A stretch of DNA of 64,000 nt, taken from IMG/VR virus record IMGVR_UViG_3300032093_000005. One strand, 5' to 3'. The notes beneath the pieces are model-generated. The model was given only the letters and a program-made list of their open reading frames with translations, had not been told where the DNA came from and made no database searches. The stretch comes from a virus (Duplodnaviria; Caudoviricetes). A program made the position numbers and the translations under genes. Position 1 is the stretch's first letter. Every line of letters starts with the position of its first letter. Of the stretch, positions 3,458 to 47,996 are shown in pieces.

Positions 3458-4072
3458 TCAACACTCATCCATTCCAAGTGGTTTAGACACTTTAGTAAGT
3501 GTATAAGATCCATCGCCATTATCAACCCATTCAACCTGATCACCCTCCTTTAGGTTTGCTGCTTCAAGAAGGTCATCTGGGAAAGTTACAAAACATTCAC
3601 CACTTGGTTCTAATTCAACAGGAAGTTGCCACTTTACAACCTTATCTGCTTTTTCTTGTTTTTCTGCAGCATCACACATTGCATTCAGTTCCTCATCAGT
3701 GTACCGAACACTACTTACGGTTGAACCAGTGCTTTCCCAGAAAGAGTTCCAAGCATCTTTGCATTCGGGTGATGGATCATCTTTATCACAAGTCAGAGGG
3801 TTTTTTACATCACCATCACGCAAGTCACCAACAGTTGCCTGCCAAGCAAGTTTAAACTTCTCATCAAACTCCTCAATGAAGTATCCAAGAAACTCATATG
3901 CTGCCATTGTCATGGCCTCTGCACGTTCTTGTTGATTGTTACTGCAACATTCGTTTGCAACATCAATCATTTCACGGGCAGAGACGACCTTTGCAATGAT
4001 CATCTCAAGATCATTCATTGTATCCCAAACTTTCTGATACTTAATTGCCATGACGTTTGAGTTCTTCCTCAA
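3458..4072 (-). CDS. Hypothetical protein with C-terminal AbrB/MazE-like domain
   Basis: C-terminal VTFPDDLLEAANLKEGDQVEWVDNGDGSYTLTK resembles the AbrB/SpoVT swapped-hairpin motif. Confidence 0.55.
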   Translation of the reverse strand: MRKNSNVMAIKYQKVWDTMNDLEMIIAKVVSAREMIDVANECCSNNQQERAEAMTMAAYEFLGYFIEEFDEKFKLAWQATVGDLRDGDVKNPLTCDKDDPSPECKDAWNSFWESTGSTVSSVRYTDEELNAMCDAAEKQEKADKVVKWQLPVELEPSGECFVTFPDDLLEAANLKEGDQVEWVDNGDGSYTLTKVSKPLGMDEC

Positions 4073-10200: not shown

Positions 10201-12198
10201 CACAGGGGGTGGTGCTACTGGAGGTAGTATAACGGGTTGTTGAACTGCTTGCACTTGAGGTTGTGCCACTTGCTCAACTGGTTGTGCTGGTTGTGCTGGT
10301 TCTTCTAGTTTCTTTTCAAGTTCTTGGATTTTCTGTTCCAGAGTCTGTTCCAGAGGAGCAGTTTGTGCGTTTTTAATATCCTCAGAAATCTTCCAACTTG
10401 CAAGACCCACACTAAAAATACTAGCAAGGGCAGCAACAACAGAAACAGTTTTAGAAAAACTCATTGGTATTCGTCCTCAGGAAAAGTAAAGTATTCGTGA
10501 ATCGCAGACATCACAGCATCTTCAATATGCTCAATCACAGCACCTTCACTGGGGTTTTCTACATGTTTGTGTGCCCGATGCCATCCTTGACGCACACCCT
10601 CTTCAATTGCCTGTTCTAAAATGACATAAAACTTAGGTTTCATTCTTCTTCCTCACAAGGGAACATAGCATCATACTCTTCATCGGTCAGAGTCAGGTAC
10701 TGAACATCAGCATCTTGGTGTTCTTCGGCATACATCAGTTGATAGTGTGCGAAGTCAGAGAGACTTGTGCTCCCATATTCTACCAGACCATCAACCAAGC
10801 ACAAGTAGTTCATAATACCTCCCAATCACATTCCCAATGACAATCGTTGTTTACATTGACCCAGAAGAAGTATTTCTGATTCTCGGATGCAAGAAACATC
10901 ATACCATCACCCTTGTCTTGCTCAACAATACAAACAGGATTGTTGCCCATCATATTACACAGACGGTTCTTCGCCTTGCTGCTTTTGGGTCTTACGGTTA
11001 CTCTTTTCATTTTCAATCTCTAGTTTGAGTTTACGAATTCCAGTAATGAAGTAAGCAAAGTCACGGGTCTCTGTGATAGGTTTGGTTTCACCACACACAT
11101 CACAGGTTGACGTATAAACAGAAGAACAACCTACCGAATAAACACCATAGGTTCGTCCACAATCCATACAGGTATTATAAGCAGTTTCAAGTCTCTTGAG
11201 AAGTGCTTTCTTTTCTTTGAGGTTCATAAGGTCCAAGTTCAACACGGGGTTTTGTGTCTGCAAGGTAATCATACAGCATCTGGGCGAACCCGTACTGGGG
11301 TTTTGTGCCAGTTTCAATACTGGATGAGGTGGCAACAGTCCACATTATATCAAGTTGTAGTTTATCAGGTAAGTTCTTCATCTAAATCAACATCAATACC
11401 ATCAGTAAGGTCTTTCAATCGGTCAAAGAAATCTTCATCAAGTGGATATACCTTTTCTTCTCCTCTATCAATTCTATCACACATTTCCATCAGGTACTCA
11501 AGAAACTCTTTGGGGTAGGTTTCATCTAGGTTGATACTTGTCCAAAACCACTGGTAACATTCTTCATATGGGTCATCAGTTGGAAGTAGAGCATAGTCCT
11601 TATAGTTTCCACTGATGAGGTCTCTCCACATCTTGAAGTTATTCCACATCTCTCTCCAACCAGTTTGGAAGCAGTGACCAAAGTAATATTCAAACCAGTT
11701 TAGTTTTTTAGCCATCTTTCAACTTCATATAATCTCTTGCACGGTAAAACAATTCATCACGCCAGTTACGACCACAAATATCAAAAGTGAAACCTAACCG
11801 ACCAATAGAAAATAGAAAGGAGAATAGTCTTCCATATCCCATAGAGATTTGAAGATAAGGAAATTCAATCCATTTCCCATACTCTCCATAATCAAAAGCA
11901 AGTTGAAGTAGTGAATATCGTCTTCCAGTACAAAGAGTCATATACCATTCTTTTCCGTAGTCGTTTCTTTCGCCAAATTGAATGAGTTTCATAATCAGTA
12001 AGGTAACGACTTCAGACCATCTAATACTTCTTGGAATCTTTCGGCACGACTCTTGTGGTGCTCTACATTCTCTTCCAATACACCTACAATATCGTCCAGC
12101 ACAACATCCAGAGAGGCATCAGTATCAAAGTATTTCTGGATTGCTTCGGCAAGGTATCTCCTCCGACTCCATTCCATACTATAAGGACGATAATTCAT
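4205..12198 (-). other. Array of about 35 short co-oriented hypothetical ORFs (accessory region)
   Basis: Abutting or ATGA-overlapping 60-195-aa ORFs such as 4205-4405, 4405-4632, 4780-4986, 6395-6694, 7691-8278, 9728-10177, 10810-11016, 11365-11715; no recognisable families. Confidence 0.7.
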
Positions 12199-27544: not shown

Positions 27545-27850
27545 TTAGTTAGTCAAATCTTCCTCATCATACTCATATTCTATCTCTTCTGGCATATCTT
27601 CAGGATTTTCTAACTCAACTGGAAAGAGACAGGGGTGTGCCTCCTCATCAATCAAGTAGAAAGAACTTCTATATAAATCGTCTGGTTCAAATGTGCGATT
27701 CTTATCTGCTTCTCTGCACAAATCTTGATCGTATAAGTGTCCCTCTGGCAACTCATCGAAGGTAAATGGAACAGAGTTGATAAAATACATCTTCACAATC
27801 ATACTGCCGTCATTGTACCAGCAGTATGCAGAATCTATACGATAAGACAT
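27545..27850 (-). CDS. Conserved cyanophage hypothetical protein
   Basis: MSYRIDSAYCWY...KMYFIN.VPFTFDELP; start moved to the internal Met because the longer ORF overlaps tRNA-Leu. Confidence 0.6.
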   Translation of the reverse strand: MSYRIDSAYCWYNDGSMIVKMYFINSVPFTFDELPEGHLYDQDLCREADKNRTFEPDDLYRSSFYLIDEEAHPCLFPVELENPEDMPEEIEYEYDEEDLTN

Positions 27851-27883
27851 AGGGGTTTTCCCATATCTTATATTTATTTTTAG

Positions 27884-28165
27884 TAGGAGCGGCGAGACTT
27901 GAACTCGCATAGCCGAAGCCGACGGATTTTCTTACCACTACGACTTTCGCCGCCTCATAGAGTTTGTGGTCTGGACTATACCTTCACCATATCTTGTGAT
28001 TTAGGTGCTCCCCGTCTAGTCTCTACACCTTCATCTTTCGATGCTTGGCTCGGTATTGCCATTTTACAGGTTTCACCGAATTTGAGGAGTTACACTCATG
28101 AGGTTTCCCAAATGAGGCTCAATTTTACATAAGTCCGTTGTGTCTACCAATTCCACCACGCTCCC
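27884..28165 (-). tRNA. trnL: tRNA-Leu(UAA), intron-containing
   Basis: 5' exon GGGAGCG...ACGGACTT (28165-28131) joined to 3' exon AAAATCCGT...GTTCAAGT...CGCTCCTA (27930-27884) gives a type II cloverleaf with anticodon loop CTTAAAA. Confidence 0.92.
27931..28130 (-). ncRNA. Group I self-splicing intron (200 nt, no ORF)
   Basis: P1 GGACUU/GAGCC with U-G at the splice site, P7 GACUA/UAGUC, core GAAGGTGTAGAGACTAGACGG, GAAA-capped P9, terminal G. Confidence 0.9.
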
Positions 28166-28178
28166 GTGATGTGAGACC

Positions 28179-28207
28179 ATTATAACTCAAAGAGTTGTAG
28201 TGGTCAA
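28179..28207 (-). promoter_or_regulatory. Sigma70-type promoter for tRNA-Leu
   Basis: TTGACC (28202-28207) - 17 nt - TATAAT (28179-28184). Confidence 0.7.
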
Positions 28208-28208
28208 G

Positions 28209-28282
28209 TGCAGGTTGTGGGGATCGAACCCACCTTAGCCGAATTATGAGTTCGGTGCTTTCAACCAGAGAGCTAAACCTGC
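28209..28282 (-). tRNA. tRNA with CAU anticodon (elongator Met or lysidine-type Ile2)
   Basis: GCAGGTT acceptor stem, CCGAA-CTCATAA-TTCGG anticodon arm, GTTCGAT T-loop; lacks initiator features. Confidence 0.85.
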
Positions 28283-28286
28283 ACGA

Positions 28287-28358
28287 TGGGAACAGCGGGA
28301 GTTGAACCCGCGCTAAGCACTTATAAGGTGCCCGCTCTAACCATTAAGCTATGCTCCC
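28287..28358 (-). tRNA. trnI: tRNA-Ile(UAU)
   Basis: GGGAGCA/TGTTCCC acceptor, GCAC-CTTATAA-GTGC anticodon arm, GTTCAAC T-loop. Confidence 0.85.
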
Positions 28359-28375
28359 ATAAAAAACTCAGAGTA

Positions 28376-28549
28376 TCACTGAGCTTCGTTGTTTAATTCA
28401 GTGTGTATTCGTATCAGATCGTCGTCTGCGGGCATCATTACTGCTGCCTTTCCATTCTCATCCACAATACCTAAAGTTTCTCCATTTTCAACTCGTCCCA
28501 TCAGTTCATCAAACCTCTCTTGAAACTCTTCCACTGTGAAAATTTCCAT
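28376..28549 (-). CDS. Phd/YefM antitoxin-like small protein (57 aa)
   Basis: Hand translation: MEIFTVEEFQERFDELMGRVENGETLGIVDENGKAAVMMPA... Confidence 0.55.
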   Translation of the reverse strand: MEIFTVEEFQERFDELMGRVENGETLGIVDENGKAAVMMPADDDLIRIHTELNNEAQ

Positions 28550-44772: not shown

Positions 44773-45439
44773 AGAGTTCCAGTTTATCTCTAACAAACTT
44801 TCTAATGTATTCTGTGAGAAGTTTGATGTACTTTGATTTGTTTCTTTCTTCATAAACGACGCATTCTCCATTTTCACAAGCCATAATGATTACAAGTTTT
44901 TTGACTGAAATACCAGTCAGTTCGTATAGCATACATCCGTAAGCCATACATTGAACAAAGTAGTGTTCGATCCACTCTCGTGGTTTTGGTTTTTTAGAAG
45001 TTTTAAAGTCAATTATTGCTAACTCGCCGTCATATTCAGCGATACAATCAACTGTCCCAGCAATACCTAATTGCTTACTATATAGGGACCCTTCTAGGGC
45101 GTAAATATTATTTATGCGATTGAGTTCTGTTTTTGAGATTTTAAAGAGAAAGTCTGAAAGAGGTTGAACTGAGGGCAGGTCACGATTATAAAGATAGTTC
45201 TCTACAAGCGTGTGCATATCAGTTCCACGACTCGTTGCCGCTTTCGTGACACGATCCGCTTCTTCATCTCCAACTTTCTTACGCCAATTAACAAAGATCT
45301 CCTTATTAAAATGACTGGTCACCGAAGTAATGGAGACCAGTCGGAGAAGTTCTTCTTCATCAGGAATTGAGTAGTATCTTACACCATCAATTGTCTCACG
45401 CTCCAACTTAGGGAGTTCAATATCAATATGTTTGAACAT
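44759..45439 (-). CDS. PD-(D/E)XK exonuclease
   Basis: SITSV, RGTDMH, AGTVDCIAEY...IIDFKTS, YFVQCMAY. Confidence 0.85.
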   Translation of the reverse strand: MFKHIDIELPKLERETIDGVRYYSIPDEEELLRLVSITSVTSHFNKEIFVNWRKKVGDEEADRVTKAATSRGTDMHTLVENYLYNRDLPSVQPLSDFLFKISKTELNRINNIYALEGSLYSKQLGIAGTVDCIAEYDGELAIIDFKTSKKPKPREWIEHYFVQCMAYGCMLYELTGISVKKLVIIMACENGECVVYEERNKSKYIKLLTEYIRKFVRDKLELYGTK

Positions 45440-46197
45440 TAAAAACCAGCATCCAATTTAGCAATAATGTACTCTTTAACAAGTCCAGAACGAACAATGT
45501 CTTCTACACCAAATTCAATTATATCAAAAGATGGCATTTTACGCAAGACAGTCATAAAATCAACAATACCATTTCGTTCGTTAGTCTTCTGTAAGTCTGA
45601 TTGAGAAGCATCACCACAGAAACAAATCTTGGTATTCTCACCAACACGAGTGATAATAGAATCCAATTCGTGAAAGTTTAGGTTTTGGAACTCATCCACA
45701 ATAATGATAGCGTTATCAAGGGTCGTTCCACGCAAGAATGAGGTGCTCCAAAACTTAATGGTTTCTTGAGACTTTAAGTTACCATAAAGCATCTCAAAGT
45801 CAGCATCAGAAGGCATCTGGAACATATACTTCACCATATTCTTATAAGGAATCTGGTAAATATCTGCCTTATCATCGTGAGTTCCAGGCAGAAATCCAAT
45901 CTCTCTGGTTGCAACAAGTGAACGAACAAGATAAATTCTTTCGTATGGTGTTCTTTCATCGAGAACATCTGCAAGGGCATTATAGAGTGTGATAAAGGTT
46001 TTACCTGTCCCAGCACATCCATAGGCAACAATATGTTTACCATCATTATAAGACTCAAACAAACGTTTTTGATTGTCTGTAAGGGGATCAATGTCAACTA
46101 AGTAATCAGCACTTAGAGGTTTTCTCCTCTTCATCTGCTTTGCAGTCAAACCAACTCCGATAGGTTGATCAACGTTGCCTCTTTTTCTTCTTGCCAT
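45439..46197 (-). CDS. phoH: PhoH-family ATPase
   Basis: GCAGTGKT, LVRSLV.TREIGFLPG, FLRGTT, IIVDEFQN, GD..QSDL. Confidence 0.95.
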   Translation of the reverse strand: MARRKRGNVDQPIGVGLTAKQMKRRKPLSADYLVDIDPLTDNQKRLFESYNDGKHIVAYGCAGTGKTFITLYNALADVLDERTPYERIYLVRSLVATREIGFLPGTHDDKADIYQIPYKNMVKYMFQMPSDADFEMLYGNLKSQETIKFWSTSFLRGTTLDNAIIIVDEFQNLNFHELDSIITRVGENTKICFCGDASQSDLQKTNERNGIVDFMTVLRKMPSFDIIEFGVEDIVRSGLVKEYIIAKLDAGF

Positions 46198-46496: not shown

Positions 46497-47144
46497 TTAT
46501 TTATTGGTATTTCTTGTAAAGGTTCTTCCTCTCCTCCAACCTTGAGGTATTTCATTTTCCTTAAAAACATATCTACTTTCATTGCCATCAGTAATCCACA
46601 TCATAACACTTTTCCCACTATTCCAAGATTTTTTACCATACCTATGATTTTTTTCACCAATTTGTCTCTCACTCAATTTTCTTTTAGTTTCTTCACTCCT
46701 TTTTGATCCATAGGATGGATGATCTTTACCAAACTTACCATACATATGATTTTTTTCACCTTTTTGGCGGTCACTAAACATTTGTAAAACATCTTTACTA
46801 TGTCTATATCCGTAGGCAGGATGTTTCTCTCCTATTTTACCATACATTGGGTTATTTTTTCCATTCAAACAATAGTAGAATTTAGTTGAAGTCTGTTTTG
46901 CTCTATTCGCAAAATGAGGATTTTTATCTACTTCATAAAAATTGTGAAGAATTATTTCTGCTTCAAGTGCTTCTTCTACACTATCAAAAGTTTCTAAAAT
47001 AATCTTTTGAGATGGATTAAAGTTCTTATCGTGAAAACTTCCAAAGTAATTTACATCTTTTTCTGGAAGACAATCACATTCTCTTTTTCCAATATAACCC
47101 CTCCCATATTCCTCATAGGAATAATACACATAAAAATGTTTCAT
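46497..47144 (-). mobile_element. GIY-YIG homing endonuclease with NUMOD3-like repeats
   Basis: FYVYYSYEEYGRGYIG...YFGS; repeats NPMYGK, HPAYGYRHS, NHMYGK, HSEETKRKLSE-like. Confidence 0.85.
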
Positions 47145-47243: not shown

Positions 47244-47996
47244 TTATGGACTCAGACGAGCACGATGCAGTCTTTTCTCTTCATAATACTTCCAAACATT
47301 TGGTGACCATTTTTGAAGAAGAGGGACAAATTGCTCACACAATGCTTGAATCTCTAATTGTGCATCCATTTTTGCTCGCAGATCCATAATATGAAGAACA
47401 GAACGTAAGTTAAAAGAAACCACAAAGTTCTGACGAATTGCTTGTGCAAGATAGTCCCTAATGTGCTCTTCGCACATTCCTTTTTCGTATTTTGTCGCAT
47501 AACGCTTGCAACCTTCTACAATCCAGTTTAGTTCGTCTTGATAATCTTCTGCTGTCCAATCATACTTCTTACCATACCGATTAGTATAAAATCCAGGAGG
47601 ACGCACAAAAAATACATCTTCTGGTTTAAGTTCACCGCTTGCAACTTTGATTACTCGCTTACCAGTGTAACGTTGAGATTGAACATCGAAAGTTACACCC
47701 ACTCTATGAGTTCGTGCCTGCATCGCAACATTATGAACATACCCAGACACTGAAAAAGTAATAGAAGGGTGTTCTAGGGGGCCCCAGTGCCCTTTCTCAT
47801 TGCTTAGTAGACGCTCTACAACCCATTCACCACATTCATTTGGACTAGGAATAGTTTGGTTGTGAATTGGAGTTTCAGAATAATCACATTTACCTGCCTG
47901 ATAAATGACTTGTTCTGGAAGTGCATAGCATTGAAGAACTACTACTTCAAGATTTTTATCAAGTTCAAGAAGATCTTTTGCTTTAATAGGTTTCAT
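47244..47996 (-). CDS. thyX: Flavin-dependent thymidylate synthase
   Basis: GHWGPLEH, QARTHR...QSQRY, NLRSVLH..DLR...AQLEI. Confidence 0.88.
   Translation of the reverse strand: MKPIKAKDLLELDKNLEVVVLQCYALPEQVIYQAGKCDYSETPIHNQTIPSPNECGEWVVERLLSNEKGHWGPLEHPSITFSVSGYVHNVAMQARTHRVGVTFDVQSQRYTGKRVIKVASGELKPEDVFFVRPPGFYTNRYGKKYDWTAEDYQDELNWIVEGCKRYATKYEKGMCEEHIRDYLAQAIRQNFVVSFNLRSVLHIMDLRAKMDAQLEIQALCEQFVPLLQKWSPNVWKYYEEKRLHRARLSP

What the first reader, a model, noticed from the sequence alone, without database searches (positions are those of the whole stretch)
27884..28165. Phage tRNA-Leu(UAA) interrupted by a 200-nt group I intron with an Azoarcus-like core
Seen: the intron sits after the U of the UAA anticodon, with intact P1, P3, P7, P8, P9 and a terminal G, no ORF, and its own promoter upstream. 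Established: this is the classic cyanobacterial/plastid trnL intron site. From memory, the core (CAAATTCGG.GAAACC, GAGCCAAGC, GAAGGTGTAGAGACTAGACGG, TATGGTGAAGG.ATAGTCCAG) resembles the Azoarcus tRNA-Ile intron more than the canonical Anabaena trnL intron; such atypical trnL introns have been reported in some cyanobacteria. Phage group I introns are mostly known in protein-coding genes. Inference: phages may carry tRNA introns between hosts, and the split gene could resist anticodon-targeting defences until spliced.
Basis: partly seen in the sequence, partly recalled or inferred. Interest (0 to 1): 0.8.

Follow-up and report, generated by a model that had tools for sequence, protein, structure and literature searches.

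The report
Self-splicing intron in cyanophage tRNA-Leu
A freshwater cyanobacterial virus carries a leucine-tRNA gene split in its anticodon by an intact 200-base self-splicing-type (group I) intron; related viruses hold the same intron in several different tRNA genes, so it looks mobile, in a setting where such introns are barely described.

Summary
On the minus strand, tRNA-Leu(UAA) (28165-27884) is split between U34 and A35 by a 200-nt ORF-less group I intron (28130-27931). Rfam scores it 58.5 bits against a cut-off of 50, and ARAGORN in intron mode finds it. Across 85 relatives, 94% of proposed pairs form and 40 of 62 pairs covary.

The window is a T4-like freshwater cyanomyovirus syntenic with Synechococcus phage S-SRM01, not a chimera. 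S-SRM01 has a different, intronless tRNA(UAA) between the same flanks.

In IMG/VR, one intron lineage (88% identity or more) occupies at least five tRNA(UAA) bodies. Intron-plus and intron-minus alleles with identical exons occur at the same locus. The intron tree does not follow exon type.

The intron is not the canonical cyanobacterial trnL intron:
- That clade is separate in the tree.
- Its core 18-mer has no hit in viral contigs.
- Only 1 of 151 genomes of a freshwater picocyanobacterium's family, which I take to be the host family, had any group I intron, and that one is in a protein gene.

The "Azoarcus-like" strings are a generic core, common in Alphaproteobacteria and phages. Splicing itself was not shown, and the defence-evasion idea has no support.

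This scan has already noted group I introns in other phages' tRNA-Leu genes. I found no paper describing them.

The parts
28285..28359 (-). tRNA-Ile(UAU), first gene of the three-tRNA cluster
   Evidence: ARAGORN; Rfam tRNA 69.6 bits
28208..28282 (-). tRNA-Met(CAU), 2 nt after tRNA-Ile
   Evidence: ARAGORN; Rfam tRNA 55 bits
28179..28207 (-). Promoter-like site TTGACC-17-TATAAT, directly after tRNA-Met and 13 nt before tRNA-Leu. It is conserved in S-SRM01 and 33 IMG/VR contigs.
   Evidence: Consensus scan, 11 of 12 matches; conservation. Function is inferred.
28131..28165 (-). tRNA-Leu(UAA) exon 1: acceptor, D arm, the 5' strand of the anticodon stem, then C32 U33 U34. It ends in CUU, which pairs with the intron's guide GAG.
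27931..28130 (-). 200-nt ORF-less group I intron. With intron position i = 28131 minus the window coordinate:
- P1 guide: 28120-28118
- P2: 28116-28095, with L2 GAAA at 28107-28104
- P3: 28089-28084 with 28013-28008
- P4: 28080-28074 with 28055-28049
- P5: 28070-28059
- P6/P6a: 28048-28028
- P7: 28023-28017 with 27978-27973
- P8: 28007-27985, with CCUAAA..UAUGG
- P9/9a/9b: 27970-27934, with L9b GAAA at 27948-27945
- Terminal G: 27931
   Evidence: Rfam RF00028 58.5 bits; ARAGORN -i; helix map; covariation on 85 sequences; conserved columns
28012..28029 (-). Core 18-mer GGTGTAGAGACTAGACGG (end of P6, J6/7, the 5' strand of P7, start of the 3' strand of P3). It was used to trace relatives.
27884..27930 (-). 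tRNA-Leu(UAA) exon 2: A35 A36, the 3' strand of the anticodon stem, a long variable arm (GGC-UUCG-GCU), T arm, acceptor and A73. G1.U72 is a wobble pair and no CCA is encoded.

Best explanation
This is a working phage tRNA-Leu(UAA) gene interrupted by an intact, ORF-less group I intron, with an IC3-like architecture.

How it most likely works:
- The gene is transcribed from the promoter-like site just upstream.
- The intron folds (P1-P9). The last three exon bases, CUU, pair with the guide GAG, and the U.G pair marks the 5' splice site.
- The two exons are held together by the 5-bp anticodon stem.
- Free guanosine attacks after U34, then the terminal G (27931) is used to join the exons.
- The product is an 82-nt class II tRNA-Leu(UAA), to which CCA is added afterwards.

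The phage is 37% GC and uses TTA for 36% of its leucines, so it needs this tRNA in a presumably GC-richer picocyanobacterial host.

The intron itself is best read as a mobile, largely selfish passenger. One intron lineage moves among co-infecting freshwater cyanomyoviruses and sits in several unrelated tRNA(UAA) bodies at the same anticodon-loop site. The likely routes are homing helped by HNH endonucleases supplied by other copies or by free-standing genes, plus ordinary recombination.

Shown: the anatomy, conservation, covariation, presence/absence alleles, decoupling of intron from exon, and distinctness from the cyanobacterial trnL introns. Inferred: splicing in vivo, use of the tRNA, and the mechanism of spread.
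For: Anatomy and family:
- On 85 relatives, 94.4% of cells pair against 29-44% when partners are slid.
- 40 of 62 pairs show changes on both sides. The covariation score is 0.41 against 0.04-0.09. U.G at the splice site holds in 85 of 85 sequences.
- The window keeps 110 of 110 conserved columns.

Phage context:
- About 78% nucleotide identity and synteny with Synechococcus phage S-SRM01.
- Tail-fibre and baseplate genes flank the cluster.
- gp32, gp59, PhoH and ThyX also lie in the window.
- 13 public DNA runs hold at least half of the stretch's words.

Same flanks, different contents:
- S-SRM01 has an intronless 73-nt tRNA(UAA) between the same promoter-like and downstream flanks.
- Of 35 loci sharing the 31-nt upstream site, 9 carry the intron and 26 do not.
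- L548 (no intron) and L552/L016 (198-nt intron) have identical exons and the same flanking motifs. They differ in the gene only by the insert between GACTT and AAAATC.

Mobility:
- About 72 of 118 viral contigs with the core are split tRNA(UAA) genes.
- The window's intron is 96% identical to that of L056, which sits in a 73-nt class I tRNA.
- Introns in L070, L033 and L098, whose exons are 98% identical to the window's, fall in another supported clade.
- Holding the class-I-hosted introns together as one clade is rejected (AU p = 1.3e-5).
- P9 modules are shuffled between exon types.
- All five ORF-bearing relatives encode an HNH-motif ORF; four reach a Pfam cut-off and L086 is weak.

Need for the tRNA:
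- The window is 37% GC. TTA and TTG together make up 49% of Leu codons.
Against: - No splicing was observed.
- The one laying of RNA-library contigs showed intron sequence at 100% identity (a 165-nt contig at 27946-28110) but no exon-exon junction.
- The window's intron has no endonuclease gene, and no HNH gene lies next to the cluster, so the means of spread here is indirect.
- No intronless allele of the window's own exon type was found; the best match is 85%.
- The host is inferred only from similarity to S-SRM01.
- The AU test's group was named after a first tree had been seen.
- Recombination within introns breaks the assumptions of tree building.
Confidence: 0.8

Rival explanations
1. 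The intron is kept because it benefits the phage against defences. The split gene or precursor escapes anticodon-targeting nucleases until spliced, or the insert protects the tRNA gene's DNA from endonucleases that cut uninterrupted tRNA(UAA) genes.
For: - Phage tRNAs are known counter-measures to tRNA-cleaving defences; Azam 2024 and the Septu/SegB work are cited in PMC13096335.
- The tRNA(UAA) cassette between conserved flanks is strikingly variable across 35 syntenic loci, as if under diversifying pressure.
- HNH genes often neighbour these tRNA genes.
- An intron at a homing site destroys that site as a matter of course.
Against: - After splicing the anticodon loop is the ordinary CUUAAAA, so the working tRNA is as exposed as any other.
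- 26 of 35 syntenic loci do without the intron.
- No defence or anticodon-nuclease gene was tied to the locus.
- DNA-level protection from a homing enzyme is simply part of the selfish-element reading.
Confidence: 0.08
2. Splicing acts as a regulatory gate. The supply of tRNA-Leu(UAA), and hence translation of the TTA-rich phage genes, is tied to GTP or Mg2+ levels or to the timing of infection.
For: - TTA is the phage's main leucine codon.
- The gene has its own promoter-like site and lies among late structural genes.
- A regulatory role was proposed for the cyanophage psbA intron, as cited in PMC8557907.
Against: - Nothing here shows conditional splicing.
- Close relatives with identical exons lack the intron, so it is dispensable.
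Confidence: 0.07
3. The intron is decayed and no longer splices, so the gene is a pseudogene.
For: - Splicing was not shown.
- The Rfam score (58.5) is lower than that of many cyanobacterial introns (up to 98 bits).
- P5 is very short.
Against: - Every conserved core column is intact.
- Close relatives differ by compensatory changes in P2, P6a and P9b.
- The lineage is kept in dozens of contigs.
- The tRNA would read half of the Leu codons.
Confidence: 0.04
4. The gene is host DNA: either a host-phage assembly chimera or a recent capture of the host's own trnL gene with its intron.
For: - The exons resemble cyanobacterial tRNA-Leu(UAA) at up to 82%.
- In one quick tree the phage clade is a weakly supported sister of the cyanobacterial clade (SH-aLRT 75).
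Against: - The flanks are phage genes syntenic with S-SRM01, and the same arrangement recurs in many viral contigs and independent runs.
- Cyanobacterial introns form a separate clade with support 100.
- None of 30 cyanobacterial loci has the window's core.
- The canonical core has no hit in IMG/VR.
- Only 1 of 151 genomes of a freshwater picocyanobacterium's family (taken to be the host family) had any group I intron, and that one is not in a tRNA.
Confidence: 0.01

Closest known systems
Classical cyanobacterial and plastid tRNA-Leu(UAA) group I intron ('Leu.3Ug' in Williams 2020, bioRxiv 10.1101/2020.01.27.920355; the Anabaena intron)
   Same: - Same gene, and the same insertion site: CUU / intron / AAAA, between U34 and A35.
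- Same U.G pair and terminal G.
- Same short P1 (guide GAG in TTGAGCC), and exons held together by the anticodon stem.
- Same overall helix plan.
   Different: - The core sequence differs: GGTGTAGAGACTAGACGG here against GGTGCAGAGACTCGACGG in 18 of 30 cyanobacterial loci.
- It is shorter: 200 nt against 212-304 nt.
- It lies outside the cyanobacterial clade.
- It is carried by a virus.
- The presumed host family mostly lacks group I introns.
tRNA-Leu(UAA) group I introns of Proteobacteria and other non-cyanobacterial phyla (the wider Leu.3Ug set of Williams 2020)
   Same: - Same site and the same 18-nt core.
- Same L2 and L9 GAAA loops and the same P8 CCUAA..UAUGG motif.
- 77-83% identity to Rhizobium, Rhizobiaceae and Rhodobacterales copies.
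   Different: - The bacterial copies are GC-rich and often have a longer P5 or P6.
- Their exons encode CCA.
- The phage clade is AT-rich, more compact, and circulates among phage tRNA genes.
Azoarcus tRNA-Ile(CAU) intron (subgroup IC3)
   Same: From my own memory only: small size, two GAAA tetraloops (L2, L9), a P8 tetraloop receptor, and much of the J6/7-P7 core string.
   Different: - A different tRNA and a different site (after position 36/37, 'Ile2.5Ug').
- P5 here is a minimal hairpin.
- I could not fetch an Azoarcus sequence with the tools, so nothing about it was tested.
Cyanophage psbA group I intron with the free-standing endonuclease F-CphI (Zeng, Bonocora and Shub 2009, cited in PMC3984707)
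   Same: An ORF-less or ORF-poor group I intron in T4-like cyanophages. Its spread may depend on an endonuclease encoded outside the intron, and intron-plus and intron-minus alleles coexist in related phages.
   Different: That intron is in a protein-coding gene. Here the target is a tRNA anticodon loop, and no partner endonuclease has been identified for the window.
'Enigmatic' tRNA introns of Lak megaphages (Devoto et al. 2019, PMC6784885)
   Same: Introns in phage tRNA genes. The authors state that none had been reported before.
   Different: The main text of that paper never mentions group I, and the authors call those introns enigmatic. One is described as possibly encoding a tRNA. This one is a full ribozyme.

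Membership tests
Group I intron (Rfam RF00028) | Covariance-model score at or above the curated gathering score | tested here: met
   58.5 bits against 50, E = 2.9e-12, full model 1-253
Group I intron (Rfam RF00028) | P1 with a U.G wobble at the 5' splice site, and a terminal G before the 3' splice site | tested here: met
   U34 (28131) pairs with G11 (28120) and G200 lies at 27931. U.G holds in 85 of 85 relatives. Intron-minus alleles confirm the boundaries.
Group I intron (Rfam RF00028) | Conserved P3-P7 pseudoknot core with P4-P6 and P8, supported by covariation | tested here: met
   62 pairs were counted and 94.4% of cells pair. 40 pairs show changes on both sides. P3, P8 and P9b pair in 99-100% of cells with compensatory changes. 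P7 varies at only one of its six pairs.
Group I intron (Rfam RF00028) | Guanosine-dependent self-splicing | not testable with these tools
   RNA-library contigs gave no junction. This needs an in vitro assay.
tRNA-Leu(UAA) intron, site class Leu.3Ug (Williams 2020) | Insert between the first and second anticodon bases (CUU/a...g/AAAA) of a tRNA-Leu(UAA) | tested here: met
Canonical cyanobacterial/plastid trnL intron lineage | Groups within the cyanobacterial intron clade and shares its core sequence | tested here: not met
   The cyanobacterial clade has support 100 and excludes the window. None of 30 cyanobacterial loci has the window's 18-mer, and 18 of 30 have the other one. The sister relation is only weakly supported, at 75.
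Subgroup IC3 (Azoarcus-like architecture) | Compact fold with L2 and L9 GAAA tetraloops and receptor motifs; sequence kinship to the Azoarcus tRNA-Ile intron | tested here: inconclusive
   The GAAA loops at L2 and L9b and CCUAAA..UAUGG in P8 are visible. No Azoarcus sequence was obtainable. No tool assigns subgroups.
Mobile group I intron with its own homing endonuclease | An endonuclease ORF inside the intron | tested here: not met
   The 200-nt intron has no ORF of 50 aa or more on its strand. Relatives L003, L086, L146, L149 and L183 do carry HNH-motif ORFs.

The most novel reading that the evidence does not exclude
Phages may be a major, overlooked reservoir and vehicle of bacterial tRNA group I introns. 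An intron lineage that recognises little more than the tRNA(UAA) anticodon loop would hop between unrelated phage tRNA genes, helped by HNH endonucleases acting in trans, and now and then into bacterial chromosomes and plasmids. That would explain the patchy spread of trnL-type introns across bacterial phyla. The hypervariable tRNA(UAA) cassette of these cyanophages would then reflect an arms race with such endonucleases or with tRNA-targeting defences.
Probability: 0.3. Interest if true: 0.7.

Novelty: new member of a known kind. Interest (0 to 1): 0.55.

Why it matters
A 2014 review states that every phage group I intron then known sat in a protein-coding gene, despite the many phage tRNA genes. 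A 2019 paper states that no phage tRNA introns had been reported. In the viral contigs sampled here, a classical ribozyme at the classical trnL site is common. It is polymorphic at a single locus and is shared between different tRNA bodies.

This gives a natural system for studying how an ORF-less intron spreads, using intron-plus and intron-minus phages with identical exons. It also makes an old question testable: were tRNA introns inherited vertically, or moved sideways, with phages as candidate carriers? Practically, default tRNA finders miss these genes, so phage tRNA inventories are undercounted.

Tried and rejected
- Default ARAGORN misses the gene; intron mode was needed.
- No whole genome is held for the window.
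- RNA evidence: contigs from four RNA libraries gave no exon-exon junction. Cover limited to the intron, and missing cover of the flanks, cannot be used. X27 record 10 looked like a junction, but it is another organism's intronless tRNA-Leu with a different 3' half.
- Full-text search for the 18-mer and a search of the Azoarcus cryo-EM paper for sequence found nothing. The Azoarcus comparison therefore stays untested.
- The canonical cyanobacterial 18-mer has no hit in IMG/VR.
- I searched for an intronless allele of the window's own exons. There were 15 junction matches, but the best tRNA is only 85% alike.
- The single group I hit in the picocyanobacterial family (L559) is in a protein-coding context, not a tRNA.
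- Chimera and host-capture readings were rejected on synteny, recurrence and phylogeny.
- ARAGORN's labels 'tRNA-Tyr(ata)', 'Phe(gaa)', 'Ser' and 'Asn' for many relatives are misplaced splice sites. Re-derived junctions give tRNA(UAA).
- Literature searches for a description of group I introns in phage tRNA genes found none.

Full report
**1. What is there**

Read on the minus strand, 28165-27884 is a class II tRNA-Leu(UAA).
- Exon 1 (28165-28131) ends ..ACGGACTT.
- Exon 2 (27930-27884) begins AAAATCCGTC.
- The 200 nt between them (28130-27931) begin ATGTAAAATTGAGCC and end GGTAAG.

Default ARAGORN reports only the two upstream genes, tRNA-Ile(UAU) at 28359-28285 and tRNA-Met(CAU) at 28282-28208. 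With introns allowed it calls tRNA-Leu(taa) with a 200-nt intron between U34 and A35. Rfam's Intron_gpI model matches 28140-27954 (-) over its full length at 58.5 bits, against a gathering score of 50. A TTGACC-17-TATAAT site (11 of 12 matches) lies at 28207-28179 (-). The intron has no ORF on its own strand.

**2. Structure**

I mapped P1 to P9 on the sequence.
- P1 is short. The exon bases CUU pair with the guide GAG, with U34.G11 as the wobble pair.
- The exons are also joined by the 5-bp anticodon stem ACGGA/UCCGU. According to the title of Zaug et al. 1993 (cited in PMC3984707), the Anabaena intron requires this exon pairing.
- L2 and L9b are GAAA loops.
- P8 carries CCUAAA..UAUGG.
- P7 is G(A)GACUA/UAGUCC.

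I aligned 85 relatives from phages and bacteria and counted the 62 pairs.
- 94.4% of cells pair, against 29-44% when partners are slid.
- 40 pairs show changes on both sides.
- The covariation score is 0.41 against 0.04-0.09.
- The U.G pair is present in 85 of 85 sequences.

The window agrees with all 110 columns that are at least 90% conserved in the other sequences. Nothing suggests decay.

**3. Context**

The window is a T4-like cyanomyovirus.
- It is about 78% identical over long syntenic blocks to Synechococcus phage S-SRM01, a member of the Kyanoviridae from a freshwater reservoir.
- Tail-fibre, baseplate-hub, gp32, gp59, PhoH and ThyX genes surround the cluster.
- Thirteen public DNA runs, mostly labelled freshwater or lake, hold at least half of the stretch's words.

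This rules out an assembly chimera. The window is 37% GC, and TTA alone is 36% of its leucine codons. That gives the phage an obvious use for this tRNA.

**4. Comparison within the phage lineage**

S-SRM01 has the same three-tRNA cluster and the same promoter-like and downstream flanks. Between them it holds a different, intronless, 73-nt tRNA(UAA).

A scan for the 31-nt upstream site found 33 IMG/VR contigs. With S-SRM01 and the window that makes 35 loci.
- All have a tRNA(UAA) about 10 nt downstream.
- They hold at least nine different tRNA bodies, of both class I and class II.
- Nine carry the intron and 26 do not.

L548 (no intron) and L552/L016 (198-nt intron) have identical exons and the same flanking motifs. 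In the gene they differ only by the insert between GACTT and AAAATC. This is natural confirmation of the intron's boundaries and of gain or precise loss.

**5. One intron lineage in several genes**

The core 18-mer occurs in at least 118 viral contigs, and about 72 of these are split tRNA(UAA) genes. Introns at least 88% identical to the window's occur in at least five tRNA bodies:
- the window's own body (L070, L033, L098, L544);
- a second class II body beginning GCGAGTA (about 20 contigs);
- class II bodies beginning GGGGCGG and GGGAGTG;
- the 73-nt class I tRNA (L056, L027 and others).

The window's intron is 96% identical to L056's, although the two tRNAs cannot be aligned with each other.

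In a careful tree the window groups with introns from class I and from two other class II bodies (support 99/96). The introns of L070, L033 and L098, whose exons are 98% identical to the window's, fall in another clade (97/96). Forcing the class-I-hosted introns into one clade is rejected (AU p = 1.3e-5). One caveat applies: I named that group after seeing a first tree. The P9a/P9b modules are also shuffled relative to exon type.

The intron and its host gene therefore have separate histories. That means intron movement, exon replacement, or both.

All five ORF-bearing members of the wider family, two viral and three bacterial, encode an HNH-motif ORF. Four reach a Pfam cut-off and L086 is weak. 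HNH genes like the free-standing one of S-SRM01 lie beside several of these tRNA genes. The window has none nearby.

**6. Relation to cellular introns**

A genome scan for the core followed by GAAAATC found at least 120 bacterial genomes. They are mostly Alphaproteobacteria, with some Acidobacteriota, Eremiobacterota and others, and none is a cyanobacterium. After the junctions were re-derived, 114 of them resolved as split tRNA-Leu(UAA) genes.

To sample cyanobacteria I reached the genome of Leptolyngbya sp. PCC 7375 through a psbA look-up. I then searched 151 genomes of its phylum, and 40 have a group I intron. Of 30 loci fetched, 22 yielded trnL(UAA) introns of 212-304 nt.
- 18 of the 30 loci have GGTGCAGAGACTCGACGG.
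- None has the window's 18-mer.
- That canonical 18-mer has no match in IMG/VR.

In a 175-sequence tree the cyanobacterial introns form one clade (support 100) that excludes the phage clade.
- A sister relation between the two has only weak support (75).
- The path from the window to the cyanobacterial introns is about 2.0.
- The path to other viral introns is 0.65-1.2.

I then sampled 151 genomes from the family of a freshwater picocyanobacterium. I take this to be the host's family, by analogy with S-SRM01. Only one genome had any group I hit, and that hit is in a protein-coding context. The intron is therefore not a copy of the host's own trnL intron. Its deeper origin is unresolved.

**7. 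'Azoarcus-like'**

The quoted strings are shared by a very large group of bacterial and phage introns, in tRNA(UAA), tRNA(CAU) and non-tRNA settings. They separate this intron from the canonical cyanobacterial type, but they do not point to Azoarcus in particular. I could not obtain an Azoarcus sequence through any tool.

**8. Expression**

RNA-library contigs from four runs were laid once. One 165-nt contig matches the inside of the intron exactly. One contig crosses the 5' splice site unspliced. No spliced junction was seen. This neither shows nor excludes splicing.

**9. Literature and earlier scan notes**

- Hausner et al. 2014 (PMC3984707) state that all phage introns then known were in protein-coding genes.
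- Devoto et al. 2019 (PMC6784885) state that phage tRNA introns had not been reported, and describe introns whose mechanism they leave open.
- Williams 2020 catalogues 21 tRNA-intron settings in bacterial genomes; its dataset held no phage genomes.
- I found no paper describing group I introns in phage tRNA genes.
- This scan has already noted group I introns in tRNA-Leu genes of other phages. Those notes gave me the Williams and Devoto leads.

**10. Verdict**

This is a real and almost certainly functional group I intron at the classical trnL site, in a cyanophage. It belongs to a phage-borne intron lineage that is polymorphic and evidently moves between tRNA(UAA) genes. Its mechanism is ordinary. 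What is new is where it lives and how it circulates. The defence-evasion idea is not supported.

Noticed in passing
window 27884-28207 (-); loci L385, L530-L554, L001: The tRNA(UAA) gene between a conserved promoter-like 31-mer and a conserved downstream flank is hypervariable. Across 35 syntenic loci there are at least nine different tRNA bodies, some 73-76 nt class I and some 82-86 nt class II, and all have anticodon UAA. It looks like a swappable cassette.
   Followed up: partly
L001 9491-9910 (-) (S-SRM01), against window 28282-28285: S-SRM01 has a free-standing HNH-motif ORF of 139 aa between tRNA-Ile and tRNA-Met. In the window those two genes are 2 nt apart. tblastn finds homologues in other contigs fetched for their tRNA-Leu genes (L353, L325, L257, L075/L082, L012, L052); in the few I placed (L257, L075, L012, L052) they lie next to intron-plus or intron-minus tRNA-Leu genes.
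   Followed up: partly
L560 1496-1792 (E. coli IncF plasmid LR890263.1, about 700 nt from predicted aac(3)-II genes): This is an unannotated split tRNA-Leu(UAA) with a roughly 218-nt group I intron of the alphaproteobacterial type. blastn finds similar sequence in 1269 plasmid records, mostly conjugative plasmids of Enterobacteriaceae. Rfam at its gathering score does not report it. It is probably a passenger of the mobilised resistance segment.
   Followed up: partly
L002 2995-3285 and L003 2995-3780 (huge phages LR756501, 735 kb, and LR756511, 595 kb): Both carry split tRNA-Leu(UAA) genes 76-79% identical to the window's. The second has a 700-nt intron holding an HNH ORF. Rfam at its gathering score misses both.
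   Followed up: partly
viral loci L008, L021, L057, L060, L061, L090 and about 30 others: The same 18-nt core occurs in introns that ARAGORN places in tRNA(CAU) genes, and in about 30 contigs where no split tRNA was found. The latter may be introns in protein-coding genes.
   Followed up: no
window 46497-47144 (-): An ORF with three NUMOD3 motifs, probably a free-standing homing endonuclease, lies between phoH (45439-46197) and thyX (47244-47996).
   Followed up: no
window 27884-28165 (-) and relatives: The phage tRNA-Leu has a G1.U72 wobble pair, A73 and no encoded CCA. The G1.U72 pair recurs in several of the related phage tRNA bodies.
   Followed up: no
window 28376-28549 (-), 3458-4072 (-), 11365-11715 (-): Small phage ORFs match antitoxin families: Phd/YefM-like, a MazE-like C-terminal stretch, and a weak PrlF-like hit. 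No toxin partner was looked for.
   Followed up: no
window 27545-27910 (-) and 27899-28132 (+): The listed 121-aa ORF overlaps the tRNA's 3' end. Its PHROG match starts at residue 21, so the real start is probably the ATG at 27850. The 77-aa TTG-start ORF antisense to the intron is probably spurious.
   Followed up: partly
L559 (contig of a 1.2-Mb genome in the picocyanobacterial family): This is the only group I intron found in 151 genomes of that family. It lies in a 41% GC stretch with no tRNA, apparently inside a protein-coding gene, and could be phage-derived DNA.
   Followed up: no
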